Positions 5,362 to 32,285 are shown, numbered from the stretch's first letter. The stretch: 64,000 nucleotides of DNA from Escherichia coli (GCF_003019035.1 NZ_CP027447.1); one strand, 5' to 3'. Notes: generated by a model from the sequence alone, not told the origin. Made by a program: numbers and translations.

Positions 5362-5399
5362 AAAAGACATCAGTTGAATAAACATTCACAGAGACTTTT

Positions 5400-5513: not shown

Positions 5514-5548
5514 AGCCCCCGGAAGATCATCTTCCGGGGGCTTTTTTA
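5514..5548 (+). terminator. his attenuator (rho-independent terminator hairpin)
   Basis: AGCCCCCGGAAGAT-CATC-TTCCGGGGGCT followed by TTTTTT, between hisL and hisG. Confidence 0.85.
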
Positions 5549-5595
5549 TTGCGCGGTTGATAACGGTTCAGACAGGTTTAAAGAGGAATAAGAAA

Positions 5596-6495: not shown

Positions 6496-6500
6496 TCGCC

Positions 6501-12017
<5,517 letters not shown>

Positions 12018-12024
<7 letters not shown>

Positions 12025-12629: not shown

Positions 12630-12641
12630 GTTGCGGGGTAA

Positions 12642-12706
12642 GCGGATGCGATGTTGTTGTCGCATCCGGCAAAATAAATATCCTCCGGCATAGCCGGAGG
12701 TTTTTC
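12642..12706. terminator. bidirectional terminator region after hisI (two hairpins)
   Basis: hairpin GCGGATGCGA..TCGCATCCGC, then hairpin CCTCCGGC-ata-GCCGGAGG followed by TTTTT on plus and a T-rich run on minus. Confidence 0.55.
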
Positions 12707-12729
12707 AAATGCGCCTATAAGGCTCTCTT

Positions 12730-14421: not shown

Positions 14422-14562
14422 TACCCTAACAGACGGAAAATTTCAGGTCGCCATAGTTTAGCGATAATCTGTATGAATGCCATAGGATAAACAATAAATA
14501 TAATGAATTGTTACATGAACATAGATACCAACTACCGCCAAAAATCATCTGATTACAGATAG

Positions 14563-15729
14563 TTAGTCGCTACCGAAAAGATCGCGGGTGTAGACCTTGT
14601 CTGCTGCATCTTTAAGCTCTTCTGACATTCGATTAGAGATAATGACATCAGCCTGTTGCTTAAAAGTCGCGAGATCACGTTCCAGACGTGAATTGAAAAA
14701 CATTTCTTCCTTCATTACCGGTTCATAGATAATCACTTCTACCCCCTTAGCTTTGATACGCTTCATGATCCCCTGAATGGAAGACGCACGAAAGTTATCT
14801 GAACCGCTCTTCATAATTAGGCGATATATCCCTACGACTTTTGGTTTACGCGACAAGATAGCATCGGCAATAAAGTCTTTGCGGGTACGGTTAGCTTCAA
14901 CGATGGCAGAAATGATGTTATTTGGCACAGACTGGTAATTTGCCAGAAGCTGCTTGGTATCTTTCGGCAAACAGTAACCACCGTAACCAAATGATGGATT
15001 GTTGTAATGGTTGCCGATACGAGGATCAAGACAAACACCTTCAATGATTTGACGGGTGTTCAATCCTAGGCTTTCTGCATAACTGTCCAGCTCGTTAAAG
15101 TACGCCACGCGCATTGCAAGGTAAGTATTGGCAAACAGTTTAATGGCCTCTGCTTCTGTTGAATCAGTAAACAGAGTCGGGATATTTTGCTTAATCGCCC
15201 CTTCCTGTAATAACGCGGCAAAACGCTGTGCACGTTCAGAACGTTCGCCGATCACAATACGGGAAGGATGAAGGTTATCGTAAAGGGCTTTGCCTTCTCG
15301 GAGGAATTCAGGGGAGAAAATGATGTTCTCAGTCTTGAATTTTTTTTGCATTGCGGCCGTAAAACCTACCGGAACCGTGGACTTAATAATCATTACGGCA
15401 CAAGGATTTATTTCTGTAACATCTTTAATTACTGATTCTACGCTAGATGTATTGAAATAATTGGTTTTCGGATCATAGTCGGTCGGGGTTGCGATGATTA
15501 CATAATCAGCATTCCGGTAGGCTTCTTTTTTATCTAATGTGGCCTTAAAACGTATTTTGTCTGATTGCAAAAATTGCTGAATTTCTTTATCAACAATAGG
15601 AGATATCCGATCATTTAGCATTGCAACGCGAGATGGCAAAATATCTAATGCTACAACGTTATGATTTTGTGCGATTAATAGCCCATTAGACAGGCCAACA
15701 TAACCGGTTCCGGAAATGGTGATTTTCAT
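14563..15729 (-). CDS. ugd: UDP-glucose 6-dehydrogenase
   Basis: 388 aa, N-terminal NAD-binding GTGYVG motif and conserved catalytic Cys region (GGYCLPKD). Confidence 0.9.
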
Positions 15730-15918
15730 TTCATGCTCTCAGAATTAACTTAACTATGAATCATGATGTTTTAGCACCCTGATAAGAGTTAAAAGTTTTA
15801 ACGCCACGATGATGTCTAGTCAACGAAACGAAAAACATTTCAGATTTTCTTTATAAGAATAGCTGCTATTTATTAAGTTAGTATTAAGCAATGAAATTAA
15901 ATCAATAAGATTGATAGC

Positions 15919-15949
15919 AAAAAAAAGCCCGGCGATAAATGCCGGGCCT
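15919..15949 (-). terminator. rho-independent terminator downstream of gnd
   Basis: GCCCGGC-gataaat-GCCGGGC hairpin; on the minus strand it is followed by a run of 8 T. Confidence 0.6.
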
Positions 15950-15973
15950 TAGTTTATTACTGATTAAATCAGA

Positions 15974-17380
15974 TTAATCCAGCCATTCGGTGTGGAATAC
16001 ACCTTCTTTATCAATGCGCTTATAGGTATGTGCACCGAAATAGTCACGCTGCGCCTGGATCAAGTTTGCTGGCAGTACTGCGGCACGATAGCTGTCATAA
16101 TAAGCAACCGCTGCAGAGAAGGTAGGTACTGGAATGCCGTTCTGCACCGCATAAGCAAGAACATCACGCAGAGCTTGCTGGTAATCGTCGGCAATTTTCT
16201 TAAAGTACGGGGCTAACAGCAGGTTAGCGATCTTCGGATTTTCAGCGTAAGCATCAGTGATTTTCTGCAGGAACTGAGCGCGGATGATACAGCCAGCACG
16301 GAAGATCTTCGCGATTTCACCATAGTTCAGATCCCAGTTGTACTCTTCAGACGCGGCACGTAGCTGTGAGAAGCCCTGAGCGTAAGAAACAATCTTACCC
16401 AGATAAAGCGCACGACGAACTTTCTCAATGAACTCAGCTTTATCGCCTGCTGGTTGTGCTTGCGGACCGGACAGTACTTTAGACGCTGCAACACGCTGCT
16501 CTTTGAGAGAAGAGATGTAACGTGCAAACACTGATTCAGTGATCAGTGACAGAGGCTCACCGAGATCCAGTGCGCTCTGGCTAGTCCACTTACCAGTACC
16601 TTTGTTAGCTGCCTCATCCAGAATCACATCGACCAGGTAGTTACCGTCTTCATCTTTTTTGGTGAAGATATCTTTAGTGATGTCGATCAGGTAGCTGCTC
16701 AGTTCACCGTTGTTCCACTCGGTAAAGGTTTGTGCCAGTTCTTCGTTAGAGAGATTCAGACCACCTTTCAGCAGAGAATAGGCTTCAGCAATCAGTTGCA
16801 TATCACCGTATTCAATACCGTTGTGAACCATCTTCACATAGTGACCTGCGCCATCGGCACCAATATAGGTAACGCACGGTTCGCCATCTTCAGCCACGGC
16901 GGCGATTTTGGTCAGGATAGGTGCAACCAGTTCATAGGCTTCTTTCTGCCCACCAGGCATGATAGAAGGTCCTTTCAGCGCGCCCTCTTCACCACCGGAA
17001 ACACCCGTACCGATGAAGTTAAAGCCTTCTGCAGAAAGCTCCCGGTTACGACGAATAGTATCCTGGAAGAAGGTATTACCACCATCAATGATGATATCTC
17101 CTTTATCGAGATATGGTTTAAGGGAATCAATAGCAGCATCCGTGCCTGCACCTGCTTTCACCATTAACAGGATGCGACGAGGCGTTTCCAGAGATTCAAC
17201 GAACTCTTTCACCGTATAGTAAGGAACCAGTTTCTTGCCTGGATTTTCAGCAATCACTTCTTCCGTCTTTTCACGGGAACGGTTGAAAATAGAGACGGTA
17301 TAACCACGGCTTTCGATGTTGAGCGCGAGGTTGCGTCCCATCACTGCCATACCGACGACGCCGATCTGTTGCTTTGACAT
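15974..17380 (-). CDS. gnd: 6-phosphogluconate dehydrogenase (decarboxylating)
   Basis: 468 aa, [27 protein letters not shown]... Confidence 0.9.
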
Positions 17381-17573
17381 TGTTTACTCCTGTCAGGGGT
17401 GGTCACCGCGGGGTTGCGCGGCTTGAATATGAAACAGATGTTAACTCAAGTTACATGAATGTGTGTAGTGCTGAATTTCATTAATGCAACAAATACCGTT
17501 CATCTTCCTTTATACAGACATCCACTTGTAACCAAACCTACGCGCACATATAAGCGAAGATAAATCTATAACA

Positions 17574-19003: not shown

Positions 19004-19750
19004 TTACTTCTTAATAAATTGAGGAAGTTTGGATAGATTTTTATACGCTAAAGCTATTGGCCAGATAATACCATTCTGTTTCATAGCGCGAATATCTTCC
19101 ATTGATTTATTGATCATGGAAGATACTGAGCGATTGCTAATTCCACCAACACGCATTTTCACTAATACTTTTGGTAAGTACGCTATTGAAATACGCTGTT
19201 TTAAAATATAACGTAATAATGAGTCATAATCAGCAGATATTCGGTAATCTAATGAAAAACAACCAAACTGACTATAACAATCGCGTTTCATATAAAATGA
19301 TGGGTGTGGCGGCATCCAACCTAGTTTCATCTTCAAACGGCTAAATGAGCCACTCTTCCATAATCTAATACGTTTAGTTGTATCATTTTTGGCAACATAC
19401 TCCAAATCACCATAAACAGCATCACACCCTGAACTTTCAAATGTTTTTACTATATCTGCAATAGCATCGTCATAAGCAAGTAAGTCATCAGAGTGCAAAA
19501 ATCCAATTATATCACCAGAAGCTGCTTGAATACCTTTATTCAGTGCATCATAAATGCCATTGTCGGGTTCGCAAATGATTGTTGAAACTCTTGTACATTT
19601 ACTCTTGATTAGCTCTATTGTATTATCTTTCGATGCCCCATCTACAACTATATATTCAATATCTGAATGTGTTTGTTTTTCCAGAGAGAGTAATGTATCA
19701 AGAAGCGTTTTTTCACTATTATAAGTTGCTGTGATAATTGAAATCCGCAT
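19004..19750 (-). CDS. family 2 glycosyltransferase (GT-A fold)
   Basis: 248 aa, N-terminal ISIITATYN...VVDGASKD pattern typical of GT2. Confidence 0.65.
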   Translation of the reverse strand: MRISIITATYNSEKTLLDTLLSLEKQTHSDIEYIVVDGASKDNTIELIKSKCTRVSTIICEPDNGIYDALNKGIQAASGDIIGFLHSDDLLAYDDAIADIVKTFESSGCDAVYGDLEYVAKNDTTKRIRLWKSGSFSRLKMKLGWMPPHPSFYMKRDCYSQFGCFSLDYRISADYDSLLRYILKQRISIAYLPKVLVKMRVGGISNRSVSSMINKSMEDIRAMKQNGIIWPIALAYKNLSKLPQFIKK

Positions 19751-21156
19751 TAGTATCCAACTCCAGAAGAAGAAACTCTTATAACATCATCCTCTTCCAA
19801 GTAGACTCCTGATCTAACCTCAATTATTTCAAGTGGGATCTTGCCAGGATTTTCAATGGCATGTGGAACACCAACAGGTATATATGTTGATTCATTTTCT
19901 GAAACAAGATAAGTTTTCTCCTCAAGATGAACTTTAGCTGTCCCCGAGACAACAATCCAATGTTCAGTACGATGGTAATGGATCTGCTTAGCGGTAATGT
20001 GACCCGGTAATACAATCACATGTTTAACCTGAAAGCGTTGCCCTTCAGCTATAGTGTCATGACTGCCCCAAGGACGAAAAATTTCCCGATGTTGTAAATA
20101 TTCTGTTCGATTATTCTTTTTAAGCTGAGCTACGATGTTTTTAACTTGCTGAACTTTATCTTTATGAGCAACTAATACTGCATCTTTCGTTTCAACGACA
20201 ACCAAATCCTTTACGCCCACGGCCCCAATAAGTCTATGCTGCGAATAAAGATAACTATCTGTAGCATCCTCAACCAAAACATCACCACGAATGGCATTGC
20301 CGCTTTGGTCTTTTGAACTTATTTCCCACAGCGCAGACCATGACCCAACATCACTCCATTGCGCATCCAATGGTACGACCACAGCTTCAGCTGTTTTTTC
20401 CATAACGGCATAGTCGATTGACTCTTCAGGGCAGCAAGAAAAAGAAGAGTTATCCAAGCGGATAAAATCTAAATCTTGAGTCGAGGAAGCTAAGGATTGC
20501 TGACAACTCTCTAGAATATCTGGACGGAATTTTTTTAGTTCATCGATGAATACAGATGCTCTGAACATAAACATTCCACTATTCCAAAGATAACCGCCAT
20601 CTGACAAATACCGCTGAGCTAATTCTAGCTCTGGCTTTTCAACAAAAGCTGCAACTTTATAACCTTGCCCACTAAGTGGATCACCTGACTTAATATAGCC
20701 ATACCCTGTCTCTGGAGCTGTTGGAACGATGCCAAATGTGACCAACTTACCTTGCTGCGCAAAGTCCTTCGCGGCCAAAACTGCTGTAATGAAACTATTC
20801 TCATCCTGAATTTCATGGTCAGCCGCAAGAACCAAAAGTATAGGATCCTCTCCACTTGCCGTTGCCTGAAGCGCTGCAAGGGCTACAGCAGGTGCCGTAT
20901 TGCGCCCAACAGGCTCAAGCAAAATCCCACTATGCTTTAAACCAACTTTACGTAATTGTTCAGCAACAATGAAACGATGTGATTCATTACAAATGATCAA
21001 AGCAGGATTGTGTTCAATCTTTTCTAGCCGTCGCAAAGTCTCTTGCAACATAGTTAAGCGGCTATTTAAAGACAGAAATTGTTTCGGATAAAGTGTACGT
21101 GAAAGAGGCCATAATCTGGTACCAGATCCACCGGCCATGACAACGGGAAGTAGCAT
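19750..21156 (-). CDS. manC: mannose-1-phosphate guanylyltransferase (ManC), O-antigen cluster copy
   Basis: 468 aa, close paralogue of CpsB further downstream ([15 protein letters not shown]... C-terminal cupin region). Confidence 0.85.
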   Translation of the reverse strand: MLLPVVMAGGSGTRLWPLSRTLYPKQFLSLNSRLTMLQETLRRLEKIEHNPALIICNESHRFIVAEQLRKVGLKHSGILLEPVGRNTAPAVALAALQATASGEDPILLVLAADHEIQDENSFITAVLAAKDFAQQGKLVTFGIVPTAPETGYGYIKSGDPLSGQGYKVAAFVEKPELELAQRYLSDGGYLWNSGMFMFRASVFIDELKKFRPDILESCQQSLASSTQDLDFIRLDNSSFSCCPEESIDYAVMEKTAEAVVVPLDAQWSDVGSWSALWEISSKDQSGNAIRGDVLVEDATDSYLYSQHRLIGAVGVKDLVVVETKDAVLVAHKDKVQQVKNIVAQLKKNNRTEYLQHREIFRPWGSHDTIAEGQRFQVKHVIVLPGHITAKQIHYHRTEHWIVVSGTAKVHLEEKTYLVSENESTYIPVGVPHAIENPGKIPLEIIEVRSGVYLEEDDVIRVSSSGVGY

Positions 21157-21161
21157 ATCTA

Positions 21162-21623
21162 TTACCTTGATATAAAATAATTTTTGGTATATTGATGAAC
21201 TGTAGTGCTATTAAGCAACGTTACTACATCAAACCACTTGTAGGAATTATGCTGAATCGTTGGTAGGCGAAGTTGCTGCGGATTAATTTGAATTTCATAT
21301 CCATGCACTACGTAGTGTGTAGAAAAATCTACTTCAGAAAAATTGTCATTGTAAAAGTGTTCATACACACCAAGAAATATGGCCTCACCAAGACTAGTTT
21401 GAACGCCTAACTCTTCAAATGTGATCCTTTTAAAAGCATCCTCGAATGACTCGTCCTTAAAAATTCGCCCTCCAGGCACAAACCAATAATTTTTTGCGGG
21501 GCGATTCAGGCGCTGCCCAAGCAGCGCCTCTCCTTTATCGTTTCTAATTACGAGGTCAATCGAGATTAGAGGAGTATGCTTGACTATTGTTTTAAATAAC
21601 TCATATTCTAATCTCTTTTTCAT
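21162..21623 (-). CDS. gmm: GDP-mannose mannosyl hydrolase (Nudix), O-antigen cluster copy
   Basis: 153 aa, alignable by eye with the colanic acid Gmm/WcaH ([20 protein letters not shown]). Confidence 0.75.
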   Translation of the reverse strand: MKKRLEYELFKTIVKHTPLISIDLVIRNDKGEALLGQRLNRPAKNYWFVPGGRIFKDESFEDAFKRITFEELGVQTSLGEAIFLGVYEHFYNDNFSEVDFSTHYVVHGYEIQINPQQLRLPTIQHNSYKWFDVVTLLNSTTVHQYTKNYFISR

Positions 21624-21625
21624 AA

Positions 21626-22591
21626 CTATCCCCGAAAAGAATCAATATTCTCAAGAAACCATTTATATGTTAATGATAGACCTTCATGTAAATTATAGCG
21701 ATGTTGCCAGCCCAAGTTTTTGAGTCGGGTAACGTCCATAAGTTTTCGCGGGGTGCCATCTGGTTTGGTCGCGTCAAAAACAATTTTTCCTTGATAACCC
21801 ACTACAGAAGCCATTGTTTCAGCCATTTCACGTATAGAACAATCCACCCCCGTACCTACATTAATATGAGATAACATTGGTTGTGTATTTTGTTGATAAA
21901 TTGCGTCCTCTAACTCCATCACATGAACCGAGGCAGCAGCCATATCATCAACATATAAAAACTCACGCATCGGCATTCCCGTGCCCCAGACAATAACTTC
22001 TTGTGCACCACTTTCTTTTGCCTCATGGAATCTACGCATAAGCGCCGGAATAACATGGGAGTTTTCAGGATGGAAGTTATCATTCGAACCATAAAGATTA
22101 GTAGGCATTACACTTCTATAATCGCGACCATATTGACGATTATAAGACTCACATAATTTTATGCCCGCAATCTTAGCAATTGCGTATGGCTCATTAGTTG
22201 GCTCAAGTATGCCCGTCAAAAGTGCAGACTCTTTCATCGGCTGCTCAGCAAATTTTGGATAAATACAGCTAGAGCCTAAAAAAAGTAATTTTTGAATTCC
22301 AACCTTGTGAGCTGAATGTATAATATTACTCTCAATCATGAGATTCTGATAAATGAATTCTGCTGGAAATGTATTATTGGCATAAATACCACCTACTTTT
22401 GCCGCAGCAAGATAAACCTGATCAACCCTCTCTCTCTCAAAAAATGCCTCAACATCCTTCTGCACGGTCAGATCGAGTTCTTTGTGTGTTTTAACCACTA
22501 ACTCGATATCATCACGCAGCGATAATTGTCGGCAAATAGCAGAGCCAACCATGCCCTGGTGCCCAGCAACATATACTCTTTTCTTTATCAT
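21626..22591 (-). CDS. fcl: GDP-L-fucose synthase, O-antigen cluster copy
   Basis: 321 aa; long identical stretches with the colanic acid Fcl ([40 protein letters not shown]). Confidence 0.85.
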
Positions 22592-22594
22592 GTA

Positions 22595-23728
22595 TTAACG
22601 CTCCAGAGAAACCGAAACATCATAACCATGGCTTTTAAGAAGTGCATGTTGTTTCGCTTTTAACAAATCGCTAGCAACCATTTCTGCACACATCTCTTCA
22701 ACTGTAATCTCTGGTTCCCAGCCTAATAGATTTTTTGCTTTTGCAGGGTCACCTAAGAGTGTTTCAACTTCAGCAGGACGGAAATAACGAGGATCAACCC
22801 GAACTATAACGTCTCCAACATTTACACCAATAGCACAATCGGAAATTTTATTAACTACTGTGGCTATCTCATCTACACCCTCACCAGAGAATTCAAGTTC
22901 AAGTCCGACTTCTTTAGCAGCCATACGGACAAATTCACGCACAGATATCTGTTTACCTGTGGCAATGACAAAATCCTCTGGATGATCTTGCTGAAGCATC
23001 ATCCATTGCATGCGAACATAATCTTTAGCGTGTCCCCAGTCACGCAACGAATCCAGATTACCCAAATATAAGCATTGTTCGATCCCCTGAGAAATATTAG
23101 CTATTGCACGAGTAATTTTACGGGTAACAAAAGTTTCTCCACGGCGTGGCGATTCATGGTTAAAAAGAATACCATTACAAGCATATATACCATAAGATTC
23201 ACGGTAGTTAACTGTTATCCAGTAAGCATACATCTTAGCTACAGCATAAGGCGAACGCGGGTAGAATGGAGTTGTTTCACGCTGAGGAATCTCTTGCACT
23301 AAACCAAAAAGTTCTGAAGTAGATGCTTGATAGAAACGTGTTTTTTTCTCCAGCCCACAGATTCGTATTGCTTCTAATAAACGTAATGTCCCTATTGCAT
23401 CTACATCTGCTGTATATTCTGGTGACTCGAATGACACTGCGACATGGGATTGTGCACCAAGGTTATAAATTTCATCCGGTTGAATTTCTTGGATTAAACG
23501 GATCAGATTCGATGTATCTGTTAAATCCCCATAGTGTAAAATAAAATTAGGCTCATCAACGAATCGTGATTGATATATATGATCAATTCTATCAGTGTTA
23601 AATGACGATGCTCGGCGTTTTATACCATGTACTTCATAACCTTTTTCAATAAGAAATTCTGCAAGATATGAACCATCTTGTCCAGTTACGCCTGTGATAA
23701 ATGCAACTTTTTTATTCATTTTAATCAT
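22595..23728 (-). CDS. gmd: GDP-mannose 4,6-dehydratase, O-antigen cluster copy
   Basis: 377 aa, [16 protein letters not shown] motif; paralogue of the colanic acid gmd; true start may be the internal Met (MNKKVAF). Confidence 0.85.
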
Positions 23729-23737
23729 GTTATGTTC

Positions 23738-24769
23738 CTAAATATTCAACTCATTATAAACTTTAATCGTTTCATTAACACATTTTGACCATGAAAATTT
23801 TTGCGCCTGCAGTAAACCTCTTTCGATCATAACATTTCTTTTTAAATTAACTAATTCTAAAGCTTCTTTTAACGTAAACTCATTAATATCATCAATATAA
23901 ATAGGCGCATTCCCCCCTACTTCCGGCAACGAGGATGTGTTTGCACAAATAACTGGACATCCGGCCTGCATAGCTTCTAGGACAGGTATTCCAAACCCCT
24001 CATAACTGGAAGGGTAAACAAGTGCATATGCAGTATTATACTGTATATTTAAATCTTCATTACTCAAAAATGTAAAATGTTCATATCTATTTTTTAAATA
24101 TTTTTCAAGGAGTTCTCTTTCATATTTTTTAAGCGAGCCTCCGCCTACAATTGTAAGCTTTAAGCCATGTAATTTCCCTACAGCTTTGACTGCAAGAACG
24201 AAATTTTTATAACCTTCTCTGGCACCGACAAACAAAACTGAATTATTTACTCTCATATCAGACATGTTAGAAATATGTTTATATGATGGGGATACACCAT
24301 TATAAATCACTCTAATTTTATCTTCGCTAATTGGACAGTACTTAAGTAAATCTCTAGCAGTGTTGTTTGAAATACAAATTACGATATCACTATTCTTGAT
24401 AGCATGATATTTTTGAAGAGAATGAATAAATTTTGACATTCCTCCCCTGTATTTTTCATAGGTGAAATCATGAACAGTTGTAACATTTTTCACATTCAAA
24501 TTAGGACTTTTATGAACTCGATAATAACTTGAGTGTAAAACCCTAGTTTTAATATCACTTACATTTCTATATCTTTCTAAAATTCTTGGCTTACGATATT
24601 GCAACTTTAAGTCGCTTGTATCAAACTCAAATTCTTTATTTTTATACAATAGAATTTCAGCTTGGTAATTTGATTTCACCATTCCTTGGATCAACTCATT
24701 AAAGTATACACTTATTCCACCAAATGATTGGAGATTATAAATAATCCCATCGATAGTTACCATTATCAT
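23738..24769 (-). CDS. GT-B fold glycosyltransferase (GT4-like)
   Basis: 343 aa; C-terminal region with EGFGIPVLEAM motif characteristic of GT4 retaining transferases. Confidence 0.65.
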   Translation of the reverse strand: MIMVTIDGIIYNLQSFGGISVYFNELIQGMVKSNYQAEILLYKNKEFEFDTSDLKLQYRKPRILERYRNVSDIKTRVLHSSYYRVHKSPNLNVKNVTTVHDFTYEKYRGGMSKFIHSLQKYHAIKNSDIVICISNNTARDLLKYCPISEDKIRVIYNGVSPSYKHISNMSDMRVNNSVLFVGAREGYKNFVLAVKAVGKLHGLKLTIVGGGSLKKYERELLEKYLKNRYEHFTFLSNEDLNIQYNTAYALVYPSSYEGFGIPVLEAMQAGCPVICANTSSLPEVGGNAPIYIDDINEFTLKEALELVNLKRNVMIERGLLQAQKFSWSKCVNETIKVYNELNI

Positions 24770-26022
24770 CGCCCTCGCAAGGTAATACGTTCGATTAGAA
24801 CGAACAATATCAAAAAGAAGATCAGTAACAATACATATGCCGGCCCAGCAAAATAAGTTCCAAATGAAGGTGAAATGAGAATTATAGAAAGCAAAAAAAA
24901 GGATGCAGAGTTCGTAATTACTTTTGCATTAAACATTTTAAGCTTAGCAAAAATATAGCCATAAAAGATATTCATAGGTGAAAGAAAAGTTAAAATGATC
25001 AGTCCAACATATCCATAATCAACAAAATTATCCATCCCTTTTGAAAAAGCAGGTGTATGCCCCGACTCTGCAGCTCCTGGATAATAGATTTCATTTACAT
25101 GCAGAAATCCATATACAAAAGGTTTATCAGGAAACAAACCTCTCGGTATATAAGACCAAAATTGGCTGAAATAGACTGTGCCATTGAAAAACTTAACCAC
25201 ACCTTTATCAATATCTTGTAGCAAATAAATACTGTTTTGATACTGGTCAAAATAAGACAATACTACATCGACATTCATATTTCCAATAGCTAAAAATAAA
25301 TTATAGAGAATGGCACACGCTGCCAGGGGTGTAACTAAAATCAGGCCAAATTTTAGAAATCTAGATTTATTAAGACTTAACACTGCAAGATAAAAAATCG
25401 CAAATGAAAGAATAAAGGTTTTCGATCCAAGAAAAAAAACCAAGGTACAATAGAATATCGCGCATAAAAATAATTTTATTTCCGAGCGTAAAGCCAACGC
25501 CCTGGAAAAATAAGATACCGAAAGCATACTTAAAGAAAAGGCATATAAAACACCATTACCTTCTCGATAGTTTTGATAACCATCCCTGGGATTCGTCAAC
25601 CATCCAGAAATACCTATTTCTGACTTTGAAGAAAGAAGAACAAATAATGTAATAAACAGAACCAATGTAATATTTGATATTCTTTTTAATTTTGTATGCG
25701 AAATTAAGCAAGTTAAATAGATCTCTCTATTTTTGAATGCTATATTAAAAATAAAATAAAAGAAAATTATAGATAAAACACCCACAAAAGAGTATATGTT
25801 ATATATAAATAAAGCCTCATTATAATATTGATTTAAAGCAAAGTCTGAACCGTAGAAAAGAGGAGCCAAAATATTTTCCAATAGAAAAACCGGAAATAAA
25901 ATAATGGCGTAAATGGTAAAGGGATTGATAATTGTAAGTCTTAGCGTTTTCGTCGCTAATAAAGAAAAAGAATAATATAGTACTATAGCTAGTGTAACAT
26001 TTAAACAATATATTATTACCAC
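24766..26022 (-). CDS. wzy: O-antigen polymerase candidate
   Basis: 418 aa, very hydrophobic multi-pass membrane protein with low-complexity AT-rich codon usage, located between glycosyltransferase genes; start codon uncertain. Confidence 0.55.
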   Translation of the reverse strand: MVIIYCLNVTLAIVLYYSFSLLATKTLRLTIINPFTIYAIILFPVFLLENILAPLFYGSDFALNQYYNEALFIYNIYSFVGVLSIIFFYFIFNIAFKNREIYLTCLISHTKLKRISNITLVLFITLFVLLSSKSEIGISGWLTNPRDGYQNYREGNGVLYAFSLSMLSVSYFSRALALRSEIKLFLCAIFYCTLVFFLGSKTFILSFAIFYLAVLSLNKSRFLKFGLILVTPLAACAILYNLFLAIGNMNVDVVLSYFDQYQNSIYLLQDIDKGVVKFFNGTVYFSQFWSYIPRGLFPDKPFVYGFLHVNEIYYPGAAESGHTPAFSKGMDNFVDYGYVGLIILTFLSPMNIFYGYIFAKLKMFNAKVITNSASFFLLSIILISPSFGTYFAGPAYVLLLIFFLILFVLIERITLRGR

Positions 26023-26032
26023 ATCCTCCCCC

Positions 26033-26842
26033 CTATCTTAAACCGAATAATTTGCGCTTAATTGATTTTGTTTTTTGATATAATGCTTGAGGAACAATCA
26101 CTTTAAATAAAACTTGCAATGAATTATAGACAGCAAATTTTATTTTATATGATAAGGGCATATGAATATTATTTTTAGCTAGAATATAAGCAATTTCTTT
26201 CTTGACTAATTTTTTATTAGATTCATTTGAACTTACACCCGAAGCATCCATTATGGATACAGGAAAATTCACATAATGCATCGTAGATGGATCTATTGTT
26301 CTTATCATAAAATCACTATCAGCAGCAATTTTTAGTGTTGTATCAAAGCGATTAGCATTATCTTTAAAAAAGCTAGAATGCTGGAAAGTACCCTGATGAG
26401 GAGGAAGTGAAGGCCGACCACATTCCCACTTTTTCTTTATTTTTCCGTAAACTCCAACTATATTATCTTCATCACTAAAATATACATCACCATATATAGT
26501 TGTTGCACTCATATTTTCGTGAATGGCATTTGCTATTTTTGAAAGAGTATTATTTTCATAGAATGTATCGCCAGCTCCCATAAAAATAACCCAATCGCCA
26601 TTTATGTGAGGAAGAGCTTTATTCCAAGCGTCGTATATTCCTTGATCAGATTCGCATAAAAAATAATCTATAATATCAATATATCTATAAATATATTCTA
26701 GTGTTGATTTGTTAGAGTTGCCGTCTATAACAATCCATTGAATATTACAATAATTTTGATTTTTAATAGATTCCGCAGTCTTGCAGAAATCTTCCTCACA
26801 ATTATACGTCGATGTTATTATAGTAATCTGTAAGCCATTCAT
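26033..26842 (-). CDS. family 2 glycosyltransferase
   Basis: 269 aa, N-terminal ITIITSTYN...VIDGNS pattern typical of GT2. Confidence 0.65.
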   Translation of the reverse strand: MNGLQITIITSTYNCEEDFCKTAESIKNQNYCNIQWIVIDGNSNKSTLEYIYRYIDIIDYFLCESDQGIYDAWNKALPHINGDWVIFMGAGDTFYENNTLSKIANAIHENMSATTIYGDVYFSDEDNIVGVYGKIKKKWECGRPSLPPHQGTFQHSSFFKDNANRFDTTLKIAADSDFMIRTIDPSTMHYVNFPVSIMDASGVSSNESNKKLVKKEIAYILAKNNIHMPLSYKIKFAVYNSLQVLFKVIVPQALYQKTKSIKRKLFGLR

Positions 26843-26848
26843 CTTAAC

Positions 26849-27559
26849 TCACTTATTTTTCATGGCAATATATTTTAATCTTAATTCTTTAATTAAGGTC
26901 TTTACTTTACTATCAGTGGAATACTCAATATTAAACGTGCCAGAGACTCCTCTTATTTTGGGAATAGTTGTTCCAATAACTCCTTTTAATTTATTATTTT
27001 TAATTTGCTCAAAAAAAATGTGTTCTAAATAAACACCATCAAGGTCACGCACAGATTTATAAGAATTAGCAAAAAAGTCCCAATATATTTTTTTATTTAC
27101 AACATAAAACCTTGTATCAATCATATTTTCATTCAGAAAAGGAACTGGTATAAAAAAAGCTTTACCATTGAATGCTTTTATACATTGCTTATAATTATCG
27201 ACGTATAGTTTTGATGTTATTTTTGCGAAACTTTCAGCATTAGACAAATAGCGACTATTCATTAATGCATACTCAATTATTTCACCCTCTCCGTAACCTT
27301 TACCATAAGATTTAACACTTTCTGTATCATTTTTGAAATGTATTATCTCGATCGAATCTTTATTAAGTATTTGTTTATCATTATGAATATCTTTCGTCAA
27401 ATCATAATCACTACCATCACATATTACTATAGAATCAGCATTCTTAGACAATTCTCTTATCGCTTTCAATGTATGTAATAATCTTGAATTTTCATCAGAA
27501 AGATTTGTAAGAGGAGCATTAGGTGAGATACAAGAAGTCACTAATACTGGGATTTTCAT
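26849..27559 (-). CDS. hypothetical protein in O-antigen cluster (possible unclassified glycosyltransferase)
   Basis: 236 aa from the ATG at 27559 (MKIPVLVTSCISP...), start overlapping the wzx stop as ATGA; the longer 282-aa reading would overlap wzx by about 140 nt; no family recognisable by eye. Confidence 0.45.
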   Translation of the reverse strand: MKIPVLVTSCISPNAPLTNLSDENSRLLHTLKAIRELSKNADSIVICDGSDYDLTKDIHNDKQILNKDSIEIIHFKNDTESVKSYGKGYGEGEIIEYALMNSRYLSNAESFAKITSKLYVDNYKQCIKAFNGKAFFIPVPFLNENMIDTRFYVVNKKIYWDFFANSYKSVRDLDGVYLEHIFFEQIKNNKLKGVIGTTIPKIRGVSGTFNIEYSTDSKVKTLIKELRLKYIAMKNK

Positions 27560-28800
27560 TTTTTCTTTTCCAGCCTCAACGAAATTAACATTAGTATAAA
27601 ATAATCGGCGGTGACTCTTGCGCTCCAGGCATAAGCCACACCTGCTACAGAAAAATACATAATTGAAAAATATAAAACTAGCAGATATGGAATACATTCA
27701 ACAAGATGAATGAGACCCGTAATTTTTGCATAACCTTTCGATTGGATTTGAGCAAATGGAACTTGAGCAAGAGAGTTGAATACAAAACCTACTAATAATA
27801 TTTGAAATATATAAGGACTCTCAGCGCTATATTGTTTTCCAAGCCATAAAGTTATAATATCACTAGCCTTCAAAGAAAACATAATAGATATAACTATACT
27901 AGTTACACTTATTAATAACGTAGCCTCTTTTATTATTTTTTTTCGCTCATTTTTTGTATTATTCTTGCATAGAGCAGGAAAAATTGTCCTTGCTATAGTT
28001 GTCGGTAATATAAGTAACTTTGAAATTGCATCCGCAGGAGCAATATATAACGAAGCTTTAGCAGGGCCAACTGCATTTGATAAGATAAATCGGTCAATAT
28101 TTGTAAGCAATGGGTTAATTATACTACTAATACTCGCCCATCCTCCAAAACTTAATAGTGCTTTTGTTTTACTTAGACTAAAATCCATTGTAAGCCTATT
28201 ATTTCTAAAAACAAAGAACACGCTTAAAAGAGCACCAGTTATTCTCGCAATCACCAATCCCAAAGTAGCATTAAGCAAACCAACATTTCCATGAATGAAA
28301 ATAACTGGTAGTAGCGCAGTTAACACACCTGTAATTGTTTTTTGTACATTTAATAATTTGAATTTTTCATATCCTTCTAATATCCCCCAACAAACCATAT
28401 TAAGAAGATAAAATGGCAGACAGTAGGATAAAACACTTATAGCATATGCAACACTTTCAGTTTGTTCCGGACCACTAATTAAGGATGCAATCTTATGGTT
28501 GCAGTAATAAAAAATTACGGATACAACAACACCAATAGATAATGTTAATAAAAATGATGTTGTAATTATTTGACTGATTGCCTTTTTGTCGTTTTTATTT
28601 AATGATATTTCACGTACAACGGCTCGCGAAAGTCCGAGATCAAATATACTTGCGTATCCAACTATTGTAAAAAACATTAAAAAAAAGCCAAAGTTAGTTA
28701 TTCCTAACTCCCTTGCCAAATACCCCATCGCAGGTATTGACAATAAAGTTGGGATTGCATACCCAGCCAAATTTATTAAACTATTTATTTTAATACTCAT
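27556..28800 (-). CDS. wzx: O-antigen flippase
   Basis: 414 aa, multi-pass membrane protein of polysaccharide-transporter type immediately downstream of rfbC. Confidence 0.7.
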   Translation of the reverse strand: MSIKINSLINLAGYAIPTLLSIPAMGYLARELGITNFGFFLMFFTIVGYASIFDLGLSRAVVREISLNKNDKKAISQIITTSFLLTLSIGVVVSVIFYYCNHKIASLISGPEQTESVAYAISVLSYCLPFYLLNMVCWGILEGYEKFKLLNVQKTITGVLTALLPVIFIHGNVGLLNATLGLVIARITGALLSVFFVFRNNRLTMDFSLSKTKALLSFGGWASISSIINPLLTNIDRFILSNAVGPAKASLYIAPADAISKLLILPTTIARTIFPALCKNNTKNERKKIIKEATLLISVTSIVISIMFSLKASDIITLWLGKQYSAESPYIFQILLVGFVFNSLAQVPFAQIQSKGYAKITGLIHLVECIPYLLVLYFSIMYFSVAGVAYAWSARVTADYFILMLISLRLEKKK

Positions 28801-28816
28801 TTTTAATTATCTTTTG

Positions 28817-29359
28817 TCAATAATTATTTTGTATAAATGGAGTACCCAAACAATCTTTTTGTGATATAAGAGGTTCTTTGTATAATTGCCAATCTATGTT
28901 AAGTAAAGCATCATTCCAAATAATACATTTCTCATGTTCTTTTGAGTAAAAATTATTGGTCTTATACAATATTTCTGAACCTTCTTCTTTTACATAAAAA
29001 CCATGCGCAAACCCTTCCGGGATCCACAACTGGCGCTTATTCTCAGCAGACAAATTCACTCCAACCCATTTCCCAAATGTAGGTGACGATTTACGAATAT
29101 CAACCGCAACATCAAAAACTTCACCAACAACACAGCGCACCAGTTTTCCTTGAGCATAAGGTTCTAACTGATAATGCAACCCTCGTAAAACACCTTTTCT
29201 GGACTTAGAATGATTGTCCTGAACAAACTCAACCTTACGCCCTACAACCTCTTCGAAAACTTTCTGATTAAAGCTTTCCATAAAGAAGCCACGTTCATCC
29301 CCAAAAACTTTTGGTTCAAAAATCAGCACATCAGGAATTTCAGTTTTAATTACGTTCAT
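28817..29359 (-). CDS. rfbC: dTDP-4-dehydrorhamnose 3,5-epimerase
   Basis: 180 aa, cupin-fold RmlC-like sequence (FGDERGFFMESF..., GLHYQ). Confidence 0.85.
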   Translation of the reverse strand: MNVIKTEIPDVLIFEPKVFGDERGFFMESFNQKVFEEVVGRKVEFVQDNHSKSRKGVLRGLHYQLEPYAQGKLVRCVVGEVFDVAVDIRKSSPTFGKWVGVNLSAENKRQLWIPEGFAHGFYVKEEGSEILYKTNNFYSKEHEKCIIWNDALLNIDWQLYKEPLISQKDCLGTPFIQNNY

Positions 29360-29363
29360 CTTA

Positions 29364-30242
29364 TTAATAACCTTTAATCATTTTGAGCAGATACTGACCA
29401 TAAGCATTTTTCTTCAACGGTTCGGCTAATACTTTTACCTGCTCAGCATCAATAAACCCTTTACGATAAGCAATTTCTTCCGGACAGGAAACCTTTAGTC
29501 CCTGGCGCTCTTCAATGGTGGCAATGAAGTTGCTTGCTTCAATAAGACTTTGATGCGTCCCTGTATCCAGCCATGCATAGCCACGCCCCATCATAGCGAC
29601 AGACAAACGTCCTTGTTCCATATAAATACGGTTAATATCGGTAATTTCCAGTTCACCTCGGGCAGAAGGCTTAAGGTTTTTCGCCATTTCCACAACGTCA
29701 TTGTCATAGAAATAAAGCCCAGTAACCGCATAGTTACTTTTTGGTTCCAGCGGTTTTTCTTCCAGGCTAATTGCAGTACCGTTATTATCAAACTCCACGA
29801 CACCATAGCGTTCAGGATCATTAACGTGATAAGCAAATACCGTTGCACCGATTTCTTTGTTAACAGCAGCTTCCATTAATTTTGGCAAGTCGTGTCCATA
29901 GAAGATATTATCACCAAGCACAAGTGCACAATCATCACCTCCAATAAAGTCTTCACCAATGATAAACGCTTGCGCCAGGCCATCCGGACTCGGTTGTACT
30001 TTATACTGTAGATTAAGCCCCCATTGGCTCCCGTCCCCCAACAAATGTTGGAAACGCGGTGTATCCTGTGGAGTACTGATAATAAGAATATCGCGAATAC
30101 CCGCTAACATAAGCGTTGAAAGCGGATAATAAATCATAGGTTTATCATAAATCGGCAACAGTTGTTTACTCACGGCCATAGTCACAGGATAAAGACGAGT
30201 GCCGGAACCACCAGCTAAAATAATACCTTTACGCGTTTTCAT
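29364..30242 (-). CDS. rfbA: glucose-1-phosphate thymidylyltransferase
   Basis: 292 aa, [21 protein letters not shown]... Confidence 0.9.
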
Positions 30243-30300
30243 TTCACCATTCCTTTTAATTCATCCCGCTCTGGCATCATAAGCGAGATGCAAAAATTTG

Positions 30301-31200
30301 TTAAATTGCCGTAGTCGTAAATAATTCGTTGAGCATTCGTTTCACACCCACCTGCCAGTCAGGCAAGACAAGCGCAAAGTTCTGCTGAAACTTTTCTGTA
30401 TTGAGGCGAGAGTTATGGGGTCGACGGGCTGGTGTGGGATAGGCCGTTGTTGGCACGGCGTTAAGTTTGTTAAGAGCAAGGTTAATCCCTGCTTTGCGCG
30501 CTTCTTCAAATACCAGAGCGGCATAATCGTGCCAGGTTGTTGTACCGCCAGCAACCAGATGGTACAAACCAGCAACTTCTGGTTTGTCTACTGCTACGCG
30601 AATGGCATGAGCGGTGCAATCAGCCAGCAATTCGGCACCTGTTGGTGCGCCAAACTGATCGTTTATCACAGCCAGTTCTTCGCGCTCTTTTGCCAGACGC
30701 AACATTGTTTTGGCGAAGTTATTTCCTTTACCTGCATATACCCAGCTGGTACGGAAAATAATATGCTTCGCGCAATGTTTCTGTAACGCTTTTTCTCCGG
30801 CTAGTTTAGTTTCACCATAAACATTCAAAGGTGCTGTAGCATCCGTCTCCTGCCACGGTATTTCACCGGTTCCCGGAAATACGTAGTCAGTAGAGTAGTG
30901 AATAACCCAAGCGCCGACTTCATTAGCTGCTTTTGCAATCGCTTCGACACTTGTCGCGTTAAGTAATTGTGCAAATTCCGGTTCTGATTCCGCTTTGTCT
31001 ACTGCAGTGTGAGCAGCCGCATTAACAATAACATCAGGGCGAATTTTTTTGACAGTTTCAGCTACACCTTCGGGATTACTAAAATCACCACAATAATCAG
31101 TGGAGTGAACATCAAGAGCAATCAGATTACCCAGCGGTGCCAGAGCACGCTGCAGTTCCCAACCTACCTGCCCTGTTTTGCCGAATAGGAGGATATTCAT
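30301..31200 (-). CDS. rfbD: dTDP-4-dehydrorhamnose reductase
   Basis: 299 aa, [20 protein letters not shown]... Confidence 0.9.
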   Translation of the reverse strand: MNILLFGKTGQVGWELQRALAPLGNLIALDVHSTDYCGDFSNPEGVAETVKKIRPDVIVNAAAHTAVDKAESEPEFAQLLNATSVEAIAKAANEVGAWVIHYSTDYVFPGTGEIPWQETDATAPLNVYGETKLAGEKALQKHCAKHIIFRTSWVYAGKGNNFAKTMLRLAKEREELAVINDQFGAPTGAELLADCTAHAIRVAVDKPEVAGLYHLVAGGTTTWHDYAALVFEEARKAGINLALNKLNAVPTTAYPTPARRPHNSRLNTEKFQQNFALVLPDWQVGVKRMLNELFTTTAI

Positions 31201-32285
31201 TACTGGCGGCCCTCATAGTTCTGTTCAATCCACGACTGATAAGCACCGCTTTTCACATTCTCAACCCAATTTGTATTAGCCAGATACCATTCCACCGTTT
31301 TACGAATACCGCTCTCAAACGTTTCTTGCGGTTTCCAGCCCAATTCGCGGCTAATTTTATCGGCATCAATTGCATAACGGCGATCATGCCCTGGGCGATC
31401 AGCAACATAGGTAATTTGCTCACGATAAGATTTCTCTTTCGGGACTATCTCATCCAACAAATCACAAATAGTGAACACTACGTCGATGTTTTTCTTTTCG
31501 TTGTGTCCACCAATGTTATAAGTTTCGCCTGCTTTACCTTCGGTTACGACGGTATATAACGCTCGAGCATGATCCTCTACATACAACCAGTCGCGGATCT
31601 GATCTCCTTTGCCATAAATAGGTAATGCCTTACCTTCCAGTGCATTAAGAATAACCAGTGGAATAAGCTTTTCCGGGAAATGATAAGGACCATAGTTGTT
31701 CGAGCAATTAGTCACAATGGTCGGTAAACCATAAGTACGTTTCCATGCGCGAACCAAATGATCGCTGGAAGCTTTAGAAGCAGAATATGGACTACTTGGC
31801 GCGTATGCTGTCGTTTCCGTAAATAGCGGCAACGTTTCATTGCTATTTACTTCATCCGGATGGGGTAAGTCACCATACACCTCATCAGTAGAAATATGAT
31901 GAAAACGGAAGTTTTTTTTCTTTTCATCATCCAGACCAGACCAATAATTGCGCGCCGCTTCTAAAAGAACATAAGTACCCACAATATTGGTTTCAATAAA
32001 TGCCGCAGGGCCAGTTATTGAGCGGTCAACGTGGCTCTCTGCTGCCAGGTGCATCACCGCGTCTGGCTGGTGCTGTGCGAAAATACGAGCCATCGCTTCG
32101 GCATCGCAGATATCTGCATGCTCAAATGAATAACGTTCAGAATCAGAAATTTCAGCGAGTGATTCCAGGTTTCCGGCGTATGTTAATTTATCGACATTAA
32201 CAACACTATCTTGCGTATTATTTATTATGTGACGAACAACAGCAGAACCAATAAATCCTGCGCCACCAGTAACAAGTATCTTCAC
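31200..32285 (-). CDS. rfbB: dTDP-glucose 4,6-dehydratase
   Basis: 361 aa from a GTG start ([21 protein letters not shown]); the ORF-track 384-aa reading is an upstream over-extension. Confidence 0.9.

What the first reader, a model, noticed from the sequence alone, without database searches (positions are those of the whole stretch)
26849..27559. Unassignable 236-aa ORF inside the O-antigen cluster, translationally coupled to wzx
The ORF between wzx and a GT2 gene starts at an ATG that overlaps the wzx stop codon (ATGA), so it is almost certainly expressed with the cluster. I cannot place its sequence in any glycosyltransferase or modification-enzyme family by eye (no hexapeptide repeats, no obvious GT-A or GT-B signature; only an acidic D-G-S-D-Y-D stretch that could be a DxD-like motif). 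Since a fucose-containing O-unit needs a fucosyltransferase and none of the other three transferases is obviously one, this is the best candidate for an uncharacterised transferase.
Basis: inference. Interest (0 to 1): 0.6.

Follow-up and report, generated by a model that had tools for sequence, protein, structure and literature searches.

The report
Unclassified fourth O36 O-antigen glycosyltransferase
The unassigned 236-aa gene next to the flippase in the E. coli O36 O-antigen cluster is most likely the missing fourth sugar-adding enzyme, from a large unnamed family with a glycosyltransferase-type fold and an unusual active site; it is probably not the fucose-adding enzyme.

Summary
A 236-aa ORF lies on the minus strand at 26849-27559, and its ATG overlaps the wzx stop codon (ATGA). 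It has no significant Pfam, NCBIfam or PDB sequence match. The window is the E. coli O36 O-antigen cluster.

The fucosyltransferase interpretation is not supported. The literature assigns the O36 alpha-L-Fuc-(1->3)-GlcNAc linkage to wfeY, the GT2 gene between manC and manB. Both annotated GT2 proteins have the solved fucosyltransferase WrtF as their best PDB match.

The 'uncharacterised transferase' part is supported:
- Residual profile similarity points to GT2, not to nucleotidyltransferases.
- O36 has a pentasaccharide unit, which needs four non-initiating transferases, and only three canonical GTs are present.
- The gene is conserved in a syntenic Buttiauxella cluster and belongs to a family of about 1,200 clusters across at least six phyla, always in glycan loci and sometimes fused to flippase- or polymerase-type membrane proteins.

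The family lacks DxD (T-x-K sits at that position) and has invariant basic and acidic residues. Donor sugar and linkage remain unknown. Interest is moderate.

The parts
26849..27559 (-). 236-aa ORF (stop at 26849-26851): soluble GT-A-fold protein, proposed fourth glycosyltransferase of the O36 unit
27556..27559 (-). ATGA junction: the ORF's start codon overlaps the wzx stop codon; also present in the Buttiauxella ortholog
27410..27421 (-). C47-D48-G49-S50 motif at the end of strand beta2; aligns with the GT2 'VDDGS' nucleotide-binding motif (C 100%, D/E 100%, S 93% in 104 sequences).
27281..27304 (-). G86-K-G-Y-G-E-G-E93 signature; G86, G88, G90, E91, G92 and E93 are invariant. It occupies the position of the Gly-rich loop and helix after beta3 in GT-A/NTase folds
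27209..27223 (-). K113-I-T115-S-K117: end of beta4 plus the loop where GT-A enzymes carry DxD. No acidic residue here; K113 is 100% conserved, T115 97%, position 117 always K or R
   Evidence: DxD location defined
27107..27118 (-). D148-T149-R150-F151 on strand 147-155 (D 94%, T 98%); candidate acceptor-side motif
27020..27028 (-). L178-E179-H180 at the N-terminus of helix 178-188; E179 is invariant and is the candidate catalytic base
   Evidence: role inferred
26852..26908 (-). C-terminal basic helix (residues 218-236); residues 217-236 carry 7 K/R and 1 D/E. Possible membrane-association helix
   Evidence: role inferred
27556..28800 (-). wzx (O36-family MOP flippase), immediately upstream and overlapping
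26033..26842 (-). 269-aa WcaE/WrtF-like GT2, 6 bp downstream; a gene of this type is the recurrent downstream partner of the family in several phyla
24766..26022 (-). wzy (O36-family O-antigen polymerase)
23738..24769 (-). 343-aa GT4-family (GT-B) glycosyltransferase
19004..19750 (-). wfeY: 248-aa GT2 between manC and manB; the published candidate for the alpha-L-Fuc-(1->3)-D-GlcNAc linkage

Best explanation
The ORF encodes a soluble, cytoplasmic, sugar-nucleotide-dependent glycosyltransferase with a GT-A-type fold. It is the fourth non-initiating transferase needed to build the O36 pentasaccharide on undecaprenyl-diphosphate before Wzx flips the unit.

Shown by the evidence: the fold, family-wide conservation, exclusive location in glycan clusters, and the transferase count.

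Inferred: the N-terminal half binds the nucleotide as in GT2, through D48 of the CDGS motif. The diphosphate is held by conserved basic residues (K113, K/R117, K/R87, R26) instead of a DxD-bound metal. E179, and possibly D148, activates the acceptor hydroxyl. The basic C-terminal helix keeps the enzyme at the membrane.

It does not make the Fuc-(1->3)-GlcNAc bond, which is assigned to WfeY. Its donor and linkage are unresolved. [quoted passage not shown] So it may add the last residue of the unit, for example the tip of the two-sugar side branch. It represents a distinct GT2-like family with no existing family model.
For: Fold:
- The AlphaFold2 model has mean pLDDT 95.2 and pTM 0.92.

Sequence signal:
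- The weak Pfam Glycos_transf_2 hit covers residues 23-78.
- hhalign of a 104-sequence family profile against the WcaE-like GT2 profile gives P=8e-4 over residues 18-88 and aligns CDGS with VDGxS.
- Among 21 unrelated neighbour families, the only two GT2 families rank first and second (P 0.004 and 0.011), while RmlA-type nucleotidyltransferases score P 0.38.

Chemistry:
- O36 has a two-residue side branch and is not among the two-residue-backbone serogroups (PMC7685785).
- Its repeat unit is a pentasaccharide (title of Mandal 2015, cited in PMC12706787).
- Only three canonical GTs are present.

Conservation:
- The whole cluster is syntenic in Buttiauxella noackiae (ORF 50-53% identity, same ATGA overlap).
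- All 8 O36 complete genomes carry an intact copy at 98.6% identity or more.
- Two alleles differ by 7 synonymous and 3 non-synonymous changes, none at a conserved position.
- 15 columns are invariant across several phyla.

Context:
- All loci whose gene content was listed are polysaccharide or LPS clusters, and the recurrent neighbour families in the 80 genome loci are of the same kind.
- The domain is fused to a MOP flippase, to a polymerase-like domain with many predicted membrane spans, and to a WecA/MraY-like segment.
- The protein has no predicted membrane segment.

Gene order: GT genes often run in reverse order of action, and WfeY, the last GT gene, makes the first linkage.
Against: - No family HMM reaches significance.
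- The canonical DxD motif is absent.
- The O36 structure paper (Perepelov 2014) could not be read. The pentasaccharide count therefore rests on a paper title and a review sentence, and a transferase encoded outside the cluster cannot be formally excluded.
- The roles of K113, K117 and E179 are inferred from secondary-structure order, not from a superposition.
- No biochemical data exist for any family member.
Confidence: 0.68

Rival explanations
1. It is the (or a second) L-fucosyltransferase of the O36 unit. It would use GDP-beta-L-fucose on a GT-A scaffold without DxD, much as WrtF does.
For: - gmd/fcl lie within 10 kb of the homolog in about 15 of about 70 loci and in 5 of 8 contexts at 40% identity or more.
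- The full composition of the pentasaccharide was not available, so a second fucose cannot be excluded.
Against: - The Fuc-(1->3)-GlcNAc linkage is assigned to WfeY.
- WfeY and the adjacent GT2 both match WrtF and WcaE by sequence, and the ORF does not (versus 4, 5, 14).
- Where gmd/fcl accompany a close homolog, a recognised fucosyltransferase-family gene is also present: WfeY, GT11 or GT10.
- Most family loci have no gmd/fcl nearby.
- The Vibrio cyclitrophicus locus has rml genes but no gmd/fcl in the 15 kb held.
Confidence: 0.1
2. It is not a glycosyltransferase. It would be a nucleotidyltransferase-like enzyme of the same superfamily, activating a phosphorylated precursor as TarI or IspD do, or another nucleotide-dependent group-transfer enzyme that adds a non-sugar substituent.
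For: - Foldseek's best PDB matches are ribitol-5-phosphate and MEP cytidylyltransferases and HddC (E about 1e-6).
- The beta1-alpha1 loop is long (13 residues), as in nucleotidyltransferases.
- There is no DxD.
Against: - TM-scores are below 0.52.
- The G-x-G-x-R/K signature loop is absent; positions 8-26 show conserved T8, S9, D22 and R26 but no conserved glycine.
- There is no Pfam NTP_transferase hit in any of 40 members.
- Profile similarity to the RmlA family is nil (P 0.38), while the GT2 families rank on top.
- The precursor pathways encoded in the cluster (dTDP-Rha, GDP-Man/Fuc) are complete, so there is no orphan activation step. A fourth transferase, by contrast, is missing.
- Fusions to flippase- and polymerase-type membrane proteins suit an enzyme that acts on lipid-linked intermediates.
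Confidence: 0.1
3. It is a non-catalytic GT-A-like accessory subunit. It would act as an adaptor that partners the adjacent WcaE-like GT2, or that docks the finished unit onto the exporter (Wzx or ABC transporter).
For: - The DxD motif is lost.
- A WcaE-like GT2 is directly downstream in 10 of 60 dereplicated loci across three phyla.
- The gene is directly downstream of the exporter gene in all 8 contexts at 40% identity or more.
- Fusions to the flippase exist.
Against: - Fifteen invariant positions, including charged residues clustered at canonical active-site positions (R26, E71, E91, E93, K113, E179; D48 is always D or E), are typical of a catalyst.
- AlphaFold of the linked ORF plus GT2 pair, with a paired alignment, gave pTM 0.61, so there is no confident fixed interface.
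- Most family loci lack the GT2 partner or an adjacent flippase.
- Wzx and the ORF do not co-diverge beyond Enterobacterales (Spearman 0.17, p 0.14).
- O36 would still be one transferase short.
Confidence: 0.07

Closest known systems
CAZy GT2 / Pfam PF00535 inverting GT-A glycosyltransferases (SpsA, K4CP, TarP, WrtF)
WfeY / WcaE / WrtF-type GT2 L-fucosyltransferases
   Same: GT-A fold; no canonical DxD (WrtF has GADD, others N(A/S)GD); O-antigen and exopolysaccharide clusters. A gene of this type sits directly downstream of the ORF here and in many other genomes.
   Different: The ORF has no detectable sequence similarity to WrtF or WcaE. No equivalent of the conserved WrtF residues (D66, H142-N143, D167) could be aligned reliably. 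WrtF uses neither metal nor basic residues, whereas this family has invariant lysines at and near the DxD position.
Metal-independent GT-A glycosyltransferases (GT6 BoGT6a, GT14 C2GnT-L)
   Same: GT-A fold without a functional DxD. Basic side chains are proposed to neutralise the donor diphosphate (described in PMC12595478). This family has an invariant K113, always-basic positions 87 and 117, and an invariant R26.
   Different: No sequence relationship. The analogy is mechanistic and inferred, not tested. Those enzymes place their basic pair in the C-terminal region, whereas here the basic residues flank beta4.
IspD / TarI / HddC-type nucleotidyltransferases (same structural superfamily)
   Different: The glycine-rich G-x-G-x-R/K loop is absent. 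No Pfam or profile similarity. The cluster has no orphan precursor needing activation. The domain is fused to lipid-linked-glycan membrane proteins.

Membership tests
GT-A / nucleotide-diphospho-sugar transferase fold superfamily | Single alpha/beta/alpha Rossmann-like domain superimposable on solved GT-A or NTase structures | tested here: met
CAZy GT2 / Pfam Glycos_transf_2 (PF00535) | Significant match to the family profile | tested here: not met
   E=0.17 over residues 23-78 only. None of 40 family members reaches E<=0.1 for PF00535. No NCBIfam GT model matches.
CAZy GT2 / Pfam Glycos_transf_2 (PF00535) | Acidic nucleotide-binding motif at the end of beta2 ('DDGS'-like) | tested here: met
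   C47-D48-G49-S50. Position 48 is D or E in 104 of 104 sequences. It aligns with VDGxS of WcaE-like GT2 profiles and falls within the Pfam partial match.
CAZy GT2 / Pfam Glycos_transf_2 (PF00535) | DxD metal-binding motif in the loop after strand beta4 | tested here: not met
   Strand 110-115 is followed by S116-K117 and then strand 118-120. Residues 113-120 read KITSKLYV, and the family consensus is K-x-T-x-K/R-L-W-V with no acidic residue. The motif's location is defined in PMC12595478 and PMC11231755.
CAZy GT2 / Pfam Glycos_transf_2 (PF00535) | Catalytic Asp/Glu general base on the helix following the antiparallel strand | tested here: inconclusive
   E179 is invariant and sits at the N-terminus of helix 178-188, 31 residues after D148-T149 on strand 147-155. 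This matches the element order in WrtF (HN142-143, then D167). No residue-level superposition was available.
Sugar / polyol-phosphate nucleotidyltransferases (PF00483, PF12804; RmlA, IspD, TarI) | Glycine-rich G-x-G-x-R/K loop after beta1 (definition from general knowledge of the family) | tested here: not met
   Positions 8-26 have conserved T8, S9, D22 and R26 but no conserved glycine.
Sugar / polyol-phosphate nucleotidyltransferases (PF00483, PF12804; RmlA, IspD, TarI) | Sequence or profile similarity to the family | tested here: not met
   No Pfam hit in 40 members. hhalign against the RmlA family gives P 0.38, against 0.004 and 0.011 for the two GT2 families. Structural similarity exists only at superfamily level (TM 0.41-0.51).
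WrtF / WcaE / WfeY-type GT2 fucosyltransferases | Sequence homology to WrtF or WcaE | tested here: not met
   No PDB or NCBIfam hit for the ORF or its profile. In contrast, WfeY (E 9e-23) and the 269-aa GT2 (E 6e-10) match WrtF, and both match WcaE.
GT10 / GT11 fucosyltransferases | GT-B fold and match to PF00852 or PF01531 | tested here: not met
   The model is a single GT-A-type domain with no Pfam match. Genuine GT11 and GT10 genes sit beside homologs elsewhere.
Glycosyltransferase (functional class) | Catalyses transfer of a sugar from an activated donor to the Und-PP-linked O-unit | not testable with these tools
   Supported only indirectly, by the pentasaccharide versus three-GT count and by genomic context.

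The most novel reading that the evidence does not exclude
The ORF is a founding, uncharacterised member of a new CAZy-level family of GT-A glycosyltransferases, with about 1,200 clusters at 50% identity across Proteobacteria, Chlorobi, Bacteroidota, Firmicutes and Cyanobacteria. In this reading the family has replaced the DxD-metal site with a lysine-based diphosphate clamp (K113, K/R117). It acts as the last, 'capping' transferase, physically or kinetically coupled to the exporter. That would explain why the gene lies directly downstream of wzx or the ABC-transporter gene in its closest clade, why it is translationally coupled to wzx, and why it is sometimes fused to flippase or polymerase proteins. 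Only completed units would then be handed over for export.
Probability: 0.2. Interest if true: 0.6.

Novelty: new variant of a known kind. Interest (0 to 1): 0.4.

Why it matters
O-antigen and capsule clusters often contain one 'hypothetical' gene while appearing to be one transferase short. This case shows that such a gene can be a very divergent GT-A enzyme that family HMMs miss.

The family is large, phylogenetically broad, has no Pfam or NCBIfam model, and has no characterised member. One biochemical characterisation would therefore annotate more than a thousand protein clusters and would probably define a new glycosyltransferase family.

Its T-x-K in place of DxD, together with invariant lysines, makes it a candidate for a further, still rare, metal-independent GT-A mechanism.

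For O36 itself, the result corrects the tempting assignment of this gene as the fucosyltransferase. It leaves a clear, testable gap: which of the four linkages does it make?

Tried and rejected
- **Spurious single-sequence hits.** Pfam CK_II_beta (E 0.0027, matched by no other family member), PDB flavoprotein 390 (E 0.041), and the profile hit to Duffy-binding protein (E 0.14) were dismissed as noise.
- **Uninformative hhalign runs.** Comparing the family profile with single GT2 sequences, and running in global mode, gave nothing useful. Only local profile-profile comparison gave a weak N-terminal signal.
- **Donor sugar from co-occurrence.** rml genes accompany 5 of 8 close homologs and gmd/fcl also 5 of 8. 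Most distant loci have neither within 10 kb, so no donor can be assigned.
- **ORF and downstream GT2 as an obligate heterodimer.** AlphaFold of a linker-joined pair with a paired alignment gave pTM 0.61, which does not support it.
- **Co-inheritance of wzx and the ORF as a unit.** This is clear only within Enterobacterales and not significant overall.
- **Other E. coli serogroups.** No copy was detectable at DNA level; 8 of 5,426 genomes carry the gene and all are O36.
- **Literature.** Perepelov 2014 is not held and the review's supplements are not held. Searches for the motif and for the accession found nothing. The recently defined GT137 is an unrelated GT-B-like Kdo transferase.
- **Fusion partner of P0255.** It has no Pfam domain. 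It was judged a membrane protein from its sequence and a crude hydropathy count only.

Full report
**1. The observation.** The window around the finding is the O-antigen gene cluster of E. coli serogroup O36, read on the minus strand. The order is galF, rmlB-D-A-C, wzx, the ORF, a 269-aa GT2, wzy, a GT4, gmd, fcl, gmm, manC, a 248-aa GT2, manB, then gnd, ugd and wzz. The ORF occupies 27559 to 26849 on the minus strand and encodes 236 aa. Bases 27556-27559 read ATGA on the coding strand, so its start codon overlaps the wzx stop codon. Only 6 bp separate its stop codon from the next start codon. No minus-strand terminator-like site and no excess of promoter-like sites interrupt this stretch. A longer 282-aa reading exists and is used in one deposit. 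RefSeq and all homologs begin at the 236-aa start, and the Buttiauxella ortholog repeats the ATGA overlap. No NCBIfam model, no significant Pfam model and no PDB sequence matches it.

**2. It is a real, conserved gene.** The protein has 243 relatives in the 90%-clustered collection and 1,204 representatives in the 50%-clustered collection. Nearly all are 235-265 aa, labelled 'hypothetical', and lack any precomputed Pfam domain.
- In a 104-sequence alignment spanning Gamma-, Beta- and Alphaproteobacteria, Chlorobi, Bacteroidota, Lachnospiraceae and Synechococcus, fifteen positions are invariant: R26, C47, E71, G86, G88, G90, E91, G92, E93, S102, K113, N122, E179, G204 and G207.
- Positions 48 (D/E), 87 (K/R) and 117 (K/R) are chemically invariant.
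- In E. coli the gene occurs only in O36 genomes, 8 of 5,426 complete genomes, always full-length.
- The two most divergent alleles differ by 7 synonymous and 3 non-synonymous substitutions, none at a conserved position.

**3. Fold.** AlphaFold2 with a 40-sequence alignment gives a very confident model (pLDDT 95.2, pTM 0.92).
- Foldseek against the PDB prefers cytidylyltransferases, but with TM-scores of only 0.41-0.51.
- The fold therefore fixes the superfamily. It fixes neither the family nor the choice between glycosyltransferase and nucleotidyltransferase.
- Foldseek against AFDB50 finds family members that UniProt auto-labels either 'Glycosyltransferase family 2 protein' or 'Uncharacterized'. 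The first label includes the 99%-identical E. coli entry.

**4. Glycosyltransferase or nucleotidyltransferase?** Four independent lines favour a glycosyltransferase.
- *(a) Residual sequence signal.* The sub-threshold Pfam GT2 hit covers residues 23-78. Local profile-profile alignment with WcaE-like GT2 proteins gives P=8e-4 and aligns CDGS with the GT2 VDGxS motif. In an unbiased comparison with 21 recurrent neighbour families, the only two GT2 families rank first and second (P 0.004 and 0.011). The RmlA nucleotidyltransferase family shows nothing (P 0.38).
- *(b) Signature.* The glycine-rich G-x-G-x-R/K loop of nucleotidyltransferases is absent.
- *(c) Chemistry and bookkeeping.* O36 has a two-residue side branch and is not one of the two-residue-backbone serogroups (PMC7685785). 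Its repeat is a pentasaccharide (title of Mandal 2015, cited in PMC12706787). The usual rule is one GT gene fewer than sugars, because WecA adds the first GlcNAc (PMC10606467). Only three canonical GTs are present. The precursor pathways encoded in the cluster (dTDP-Rha, GDP-Man/Fuc) are complete, so no orphan activation step is apparent.
- *(d) Context.* All loci whose gene content was listed are polysaccharide or LPS clusters, and the recurrent neighbour families in the 80 genome loci are of the same kind. The soluble domain has no predicted membrane segment. It is found fused to the C-terminus of a complete MOP flippase, of a polymerase-like domain of about 370 aa with many predicted membrane spans (recurrent in Lachnospiraceae), and of a WecA/MraY-like segment. 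This fits an enzyme that works on undecaprenyl-linked intermediates at the cytoplasmic face of the membrane.

**5. It is not the fucosyltransferase.** PMC10606467 states that the alpha-L-Fuc-(1->3)-D-GlcNAc disaccharide is shared by O36, O41, O156, O159 and O168, and that these serogroups share wfeY, the GT gene between manC and manB. Here that gene is the 248-aa GT2 at 19004-19750.
- Its best solved relative is WrtF, a GT2-family GT-A fucosyltransferase (E 9e-23 over the whole catalytic domain).
- The 269-aa GT2 next to the ORF also matches WrtF (E 6e-10). Both have the colanic-acid enzyme WcaE as best NCBIfam hit.
- GT2-family fucosyltransferases lacking a canonical DxD are an established class.
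- In clusters where a close homolog of the ORF co-occurs with gmd/fcl, a recognised fucosyltransferase-family gene is also present. These are WfeY in Buttiauxella, GT11 in an enterobacterial-type cluster (L090) and in Shewanella, and GT10 in Chlorobiaceae.
- The premise that 'none of the other three transferases is obviously one' therefore fails.
- The DGSDYD stretch is the nucleotide-binding motif after beta2, not a DxD motif.

**6. How it probably works (inferred).** The order of secondary-structure elements in the model follows the GT-A plan.
- D48 at the end of beta2 would contact the nucleotide, as in GT2.
- The invariant GKGYGEGE segment sits where GT-A and NTase folds have their Gly-rich base- and sugar-contacting segment.
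- The loop after beta4 is where GT2 enzymes 'always' carry DxD (PMC11231755; PMC12595478). Here it reads T115-S116-K117, flanked by the invariant K113. Known metal-independent GT-A enzymes neutralise the diphosphate with a pair of basic residues, so a lysine-based, metal-independent donor site is the simplest reading.
- E179, invariant and at the N-terminus of a helix downstream of the D148-T149 strand, sits where inverting GT2 enzymes place their catalytic base.
- The basic C-terminal helix (7 K/R against 1 D/E in residues 217-236) may tether the enzyme to the membrane.
- None of these residue roles was tested.

**7. Which linkage?** This is unresolved. Co-occurrence does not single out a donor. 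rml genes accompany 5 of 8 homologs at 40% identity or more, gmd/fcl also 5 of 8, and most distant loci have neither within 10 kb.
- Gene order gives a weak hint. GT genes often run in reverse order of action (39% of clusters). WfeY, the last GT gene, makes the first linkage. The ORF is the first GT gene.
- In all eight close contexts it lies directly downstream of the exporter gene: wzx in seven and an ABC-transporter ATPase in one.
- It may therefore add the last residue, for example the tip of the disaccharide side branch.

**8. Side hypotheses tested.**
- A WcaE-like GT2 lies directly downstream in 10 of 60 dereplicated loci from three phyla and within four genes in 24 of 64. An AlphaFold model of the linked pair, built with a paired alignment, gave pTM 0.61. 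This does not support a fixed heterodimer.
- Wzx and the ORF co-diverge within Enterobacterales (Wzx 55% and 39% identity for ORF 53% and 48%), but not detectably beyond (Spearman 0.17, p 0.14).

**9. Verdict.** 'Uncharacterised transferase' is supported, and 'fucosyltransferase' is not. The ORF is best described as a very divergent GT2-like GT-A glycosyltransferase with no DxD. It represents a large family without a Pfam or NCBIfam model or a characterised member, and it fills the fourth transferase slot of the O36 pentasaccharide. Confidence that it is a glycosyltransferase is about 0.7. It counts as a new variant of a known kind, of moderate interest. Its value lies in annotation reach, a possible new CAZy family, and a possible further metal-independent GT-A mechanism.

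Noticed in passing
window 24766-26022 (minus strand); L001 6921-8174; L087 6918-8174: RefSeq flags wzx's neighbour wzy ('O36 family O-antigen polymerase') as a frameshifted pseudogene in two O36 genomes. Yet it reads through 418 codons in the window and in strain 06-00048. Strain SCU-301 is identical to the window across the cluster genes compared, except for 7 mismatches and 4 gaps in wzy. The flag may reflect the reference model or assembly indels and not a true lesion.
   Followed up: partly
window 28817-32285 versus 19004-28800: Between O36 strains, rmlB, rmlD and rmlA are only about 88% identical and rmlC 92%, whereas wzx through wfeY are 98-99% identical. This indicates a recombination boundary near rmlC/wzx.
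   Followed up: no
window 26033-27559; loci L002, L026, L048, L055, L058, L062, L067, L069, L076, L077, L086: The gene pair 'this family, then a WcaE-like GT2' recurs directly adjacent and on the same strand in Enterobacterales, Bacteroidota and Lachnospiraceae: 10 of 60 dereplicated loci, and within four genes in 24 of 64. It may be a two-enzyme module. AlphaFold of the linked pair gave pTM 0.61.
   Followed up: partly
P0134 / L088 8001-9944; P0255 / L089 860-2701; L058, L067, L083; P0196: The domain occurs fused to the C-terminus of a MOP flippase, of a polymerase-like protein of about 370 aa with many predicted membrane spans and no Pfam hit, and of a WecA/MraY-like membrane segment.
   Followed up: partly
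L090 (GCA_032248775.1, CP135147.1) 1-17555: A second enterobacterial-type O-antigen cluster (rmlBDA, gmd, fcl, gmm, manC, manB, rmlC, wzx, 48%-identical homolog, EpsG-type wzy, GT11, GT2, GT4, epimerase, gnd) again places the homolog overlapping the end of wzx. Comparing its O-antigen structure with O36 could assign the shared linkage.
   Followed up: no
L040 164-1051; L006 8976-9986 and 10809-11570: Three further recurrent neighbour families (about 297 aa upstream in Betaproteobacteria; about 336 aa and about 254 aa flanking the gene in Chlorobiaceae) also lack any NCBIfam match. They may be additional unannotated families of polysaccharide clusters.
   Followed up: no
Betaproteobacterial loci, e.g. 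L016, L019, L021, L050: In Polynucleobacter, Rhodoferax and Gallionella the homolog sits beside a convergent protein of about 485 aa with many predicted membrane spans, which looks like a repeat-unit polymerase or O-antigen ligase. It is near or next to msbA; a true MsbA equivalog is adjacent in L019. This suggests a role in LPS core or O-antigen attachment regions there.
   Followed up: partly
window 24000-29000: The serogroup-specific block from wzx to the GT4 gene is about 30% G+C, against 40-55% in the flanking sugar-pathway and housekeeping genes. This is the usual signature of horizontally acquired O-antigen processing genes.
   Followed up: no
window 27560-27697: An in-frame upstream ATG at 27697 gives a 282-aa reading that overlaps the 3' end of wzx. 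One GenBank deposit uses it (P0262), but no homolog conserves it.
   Followed up: yes
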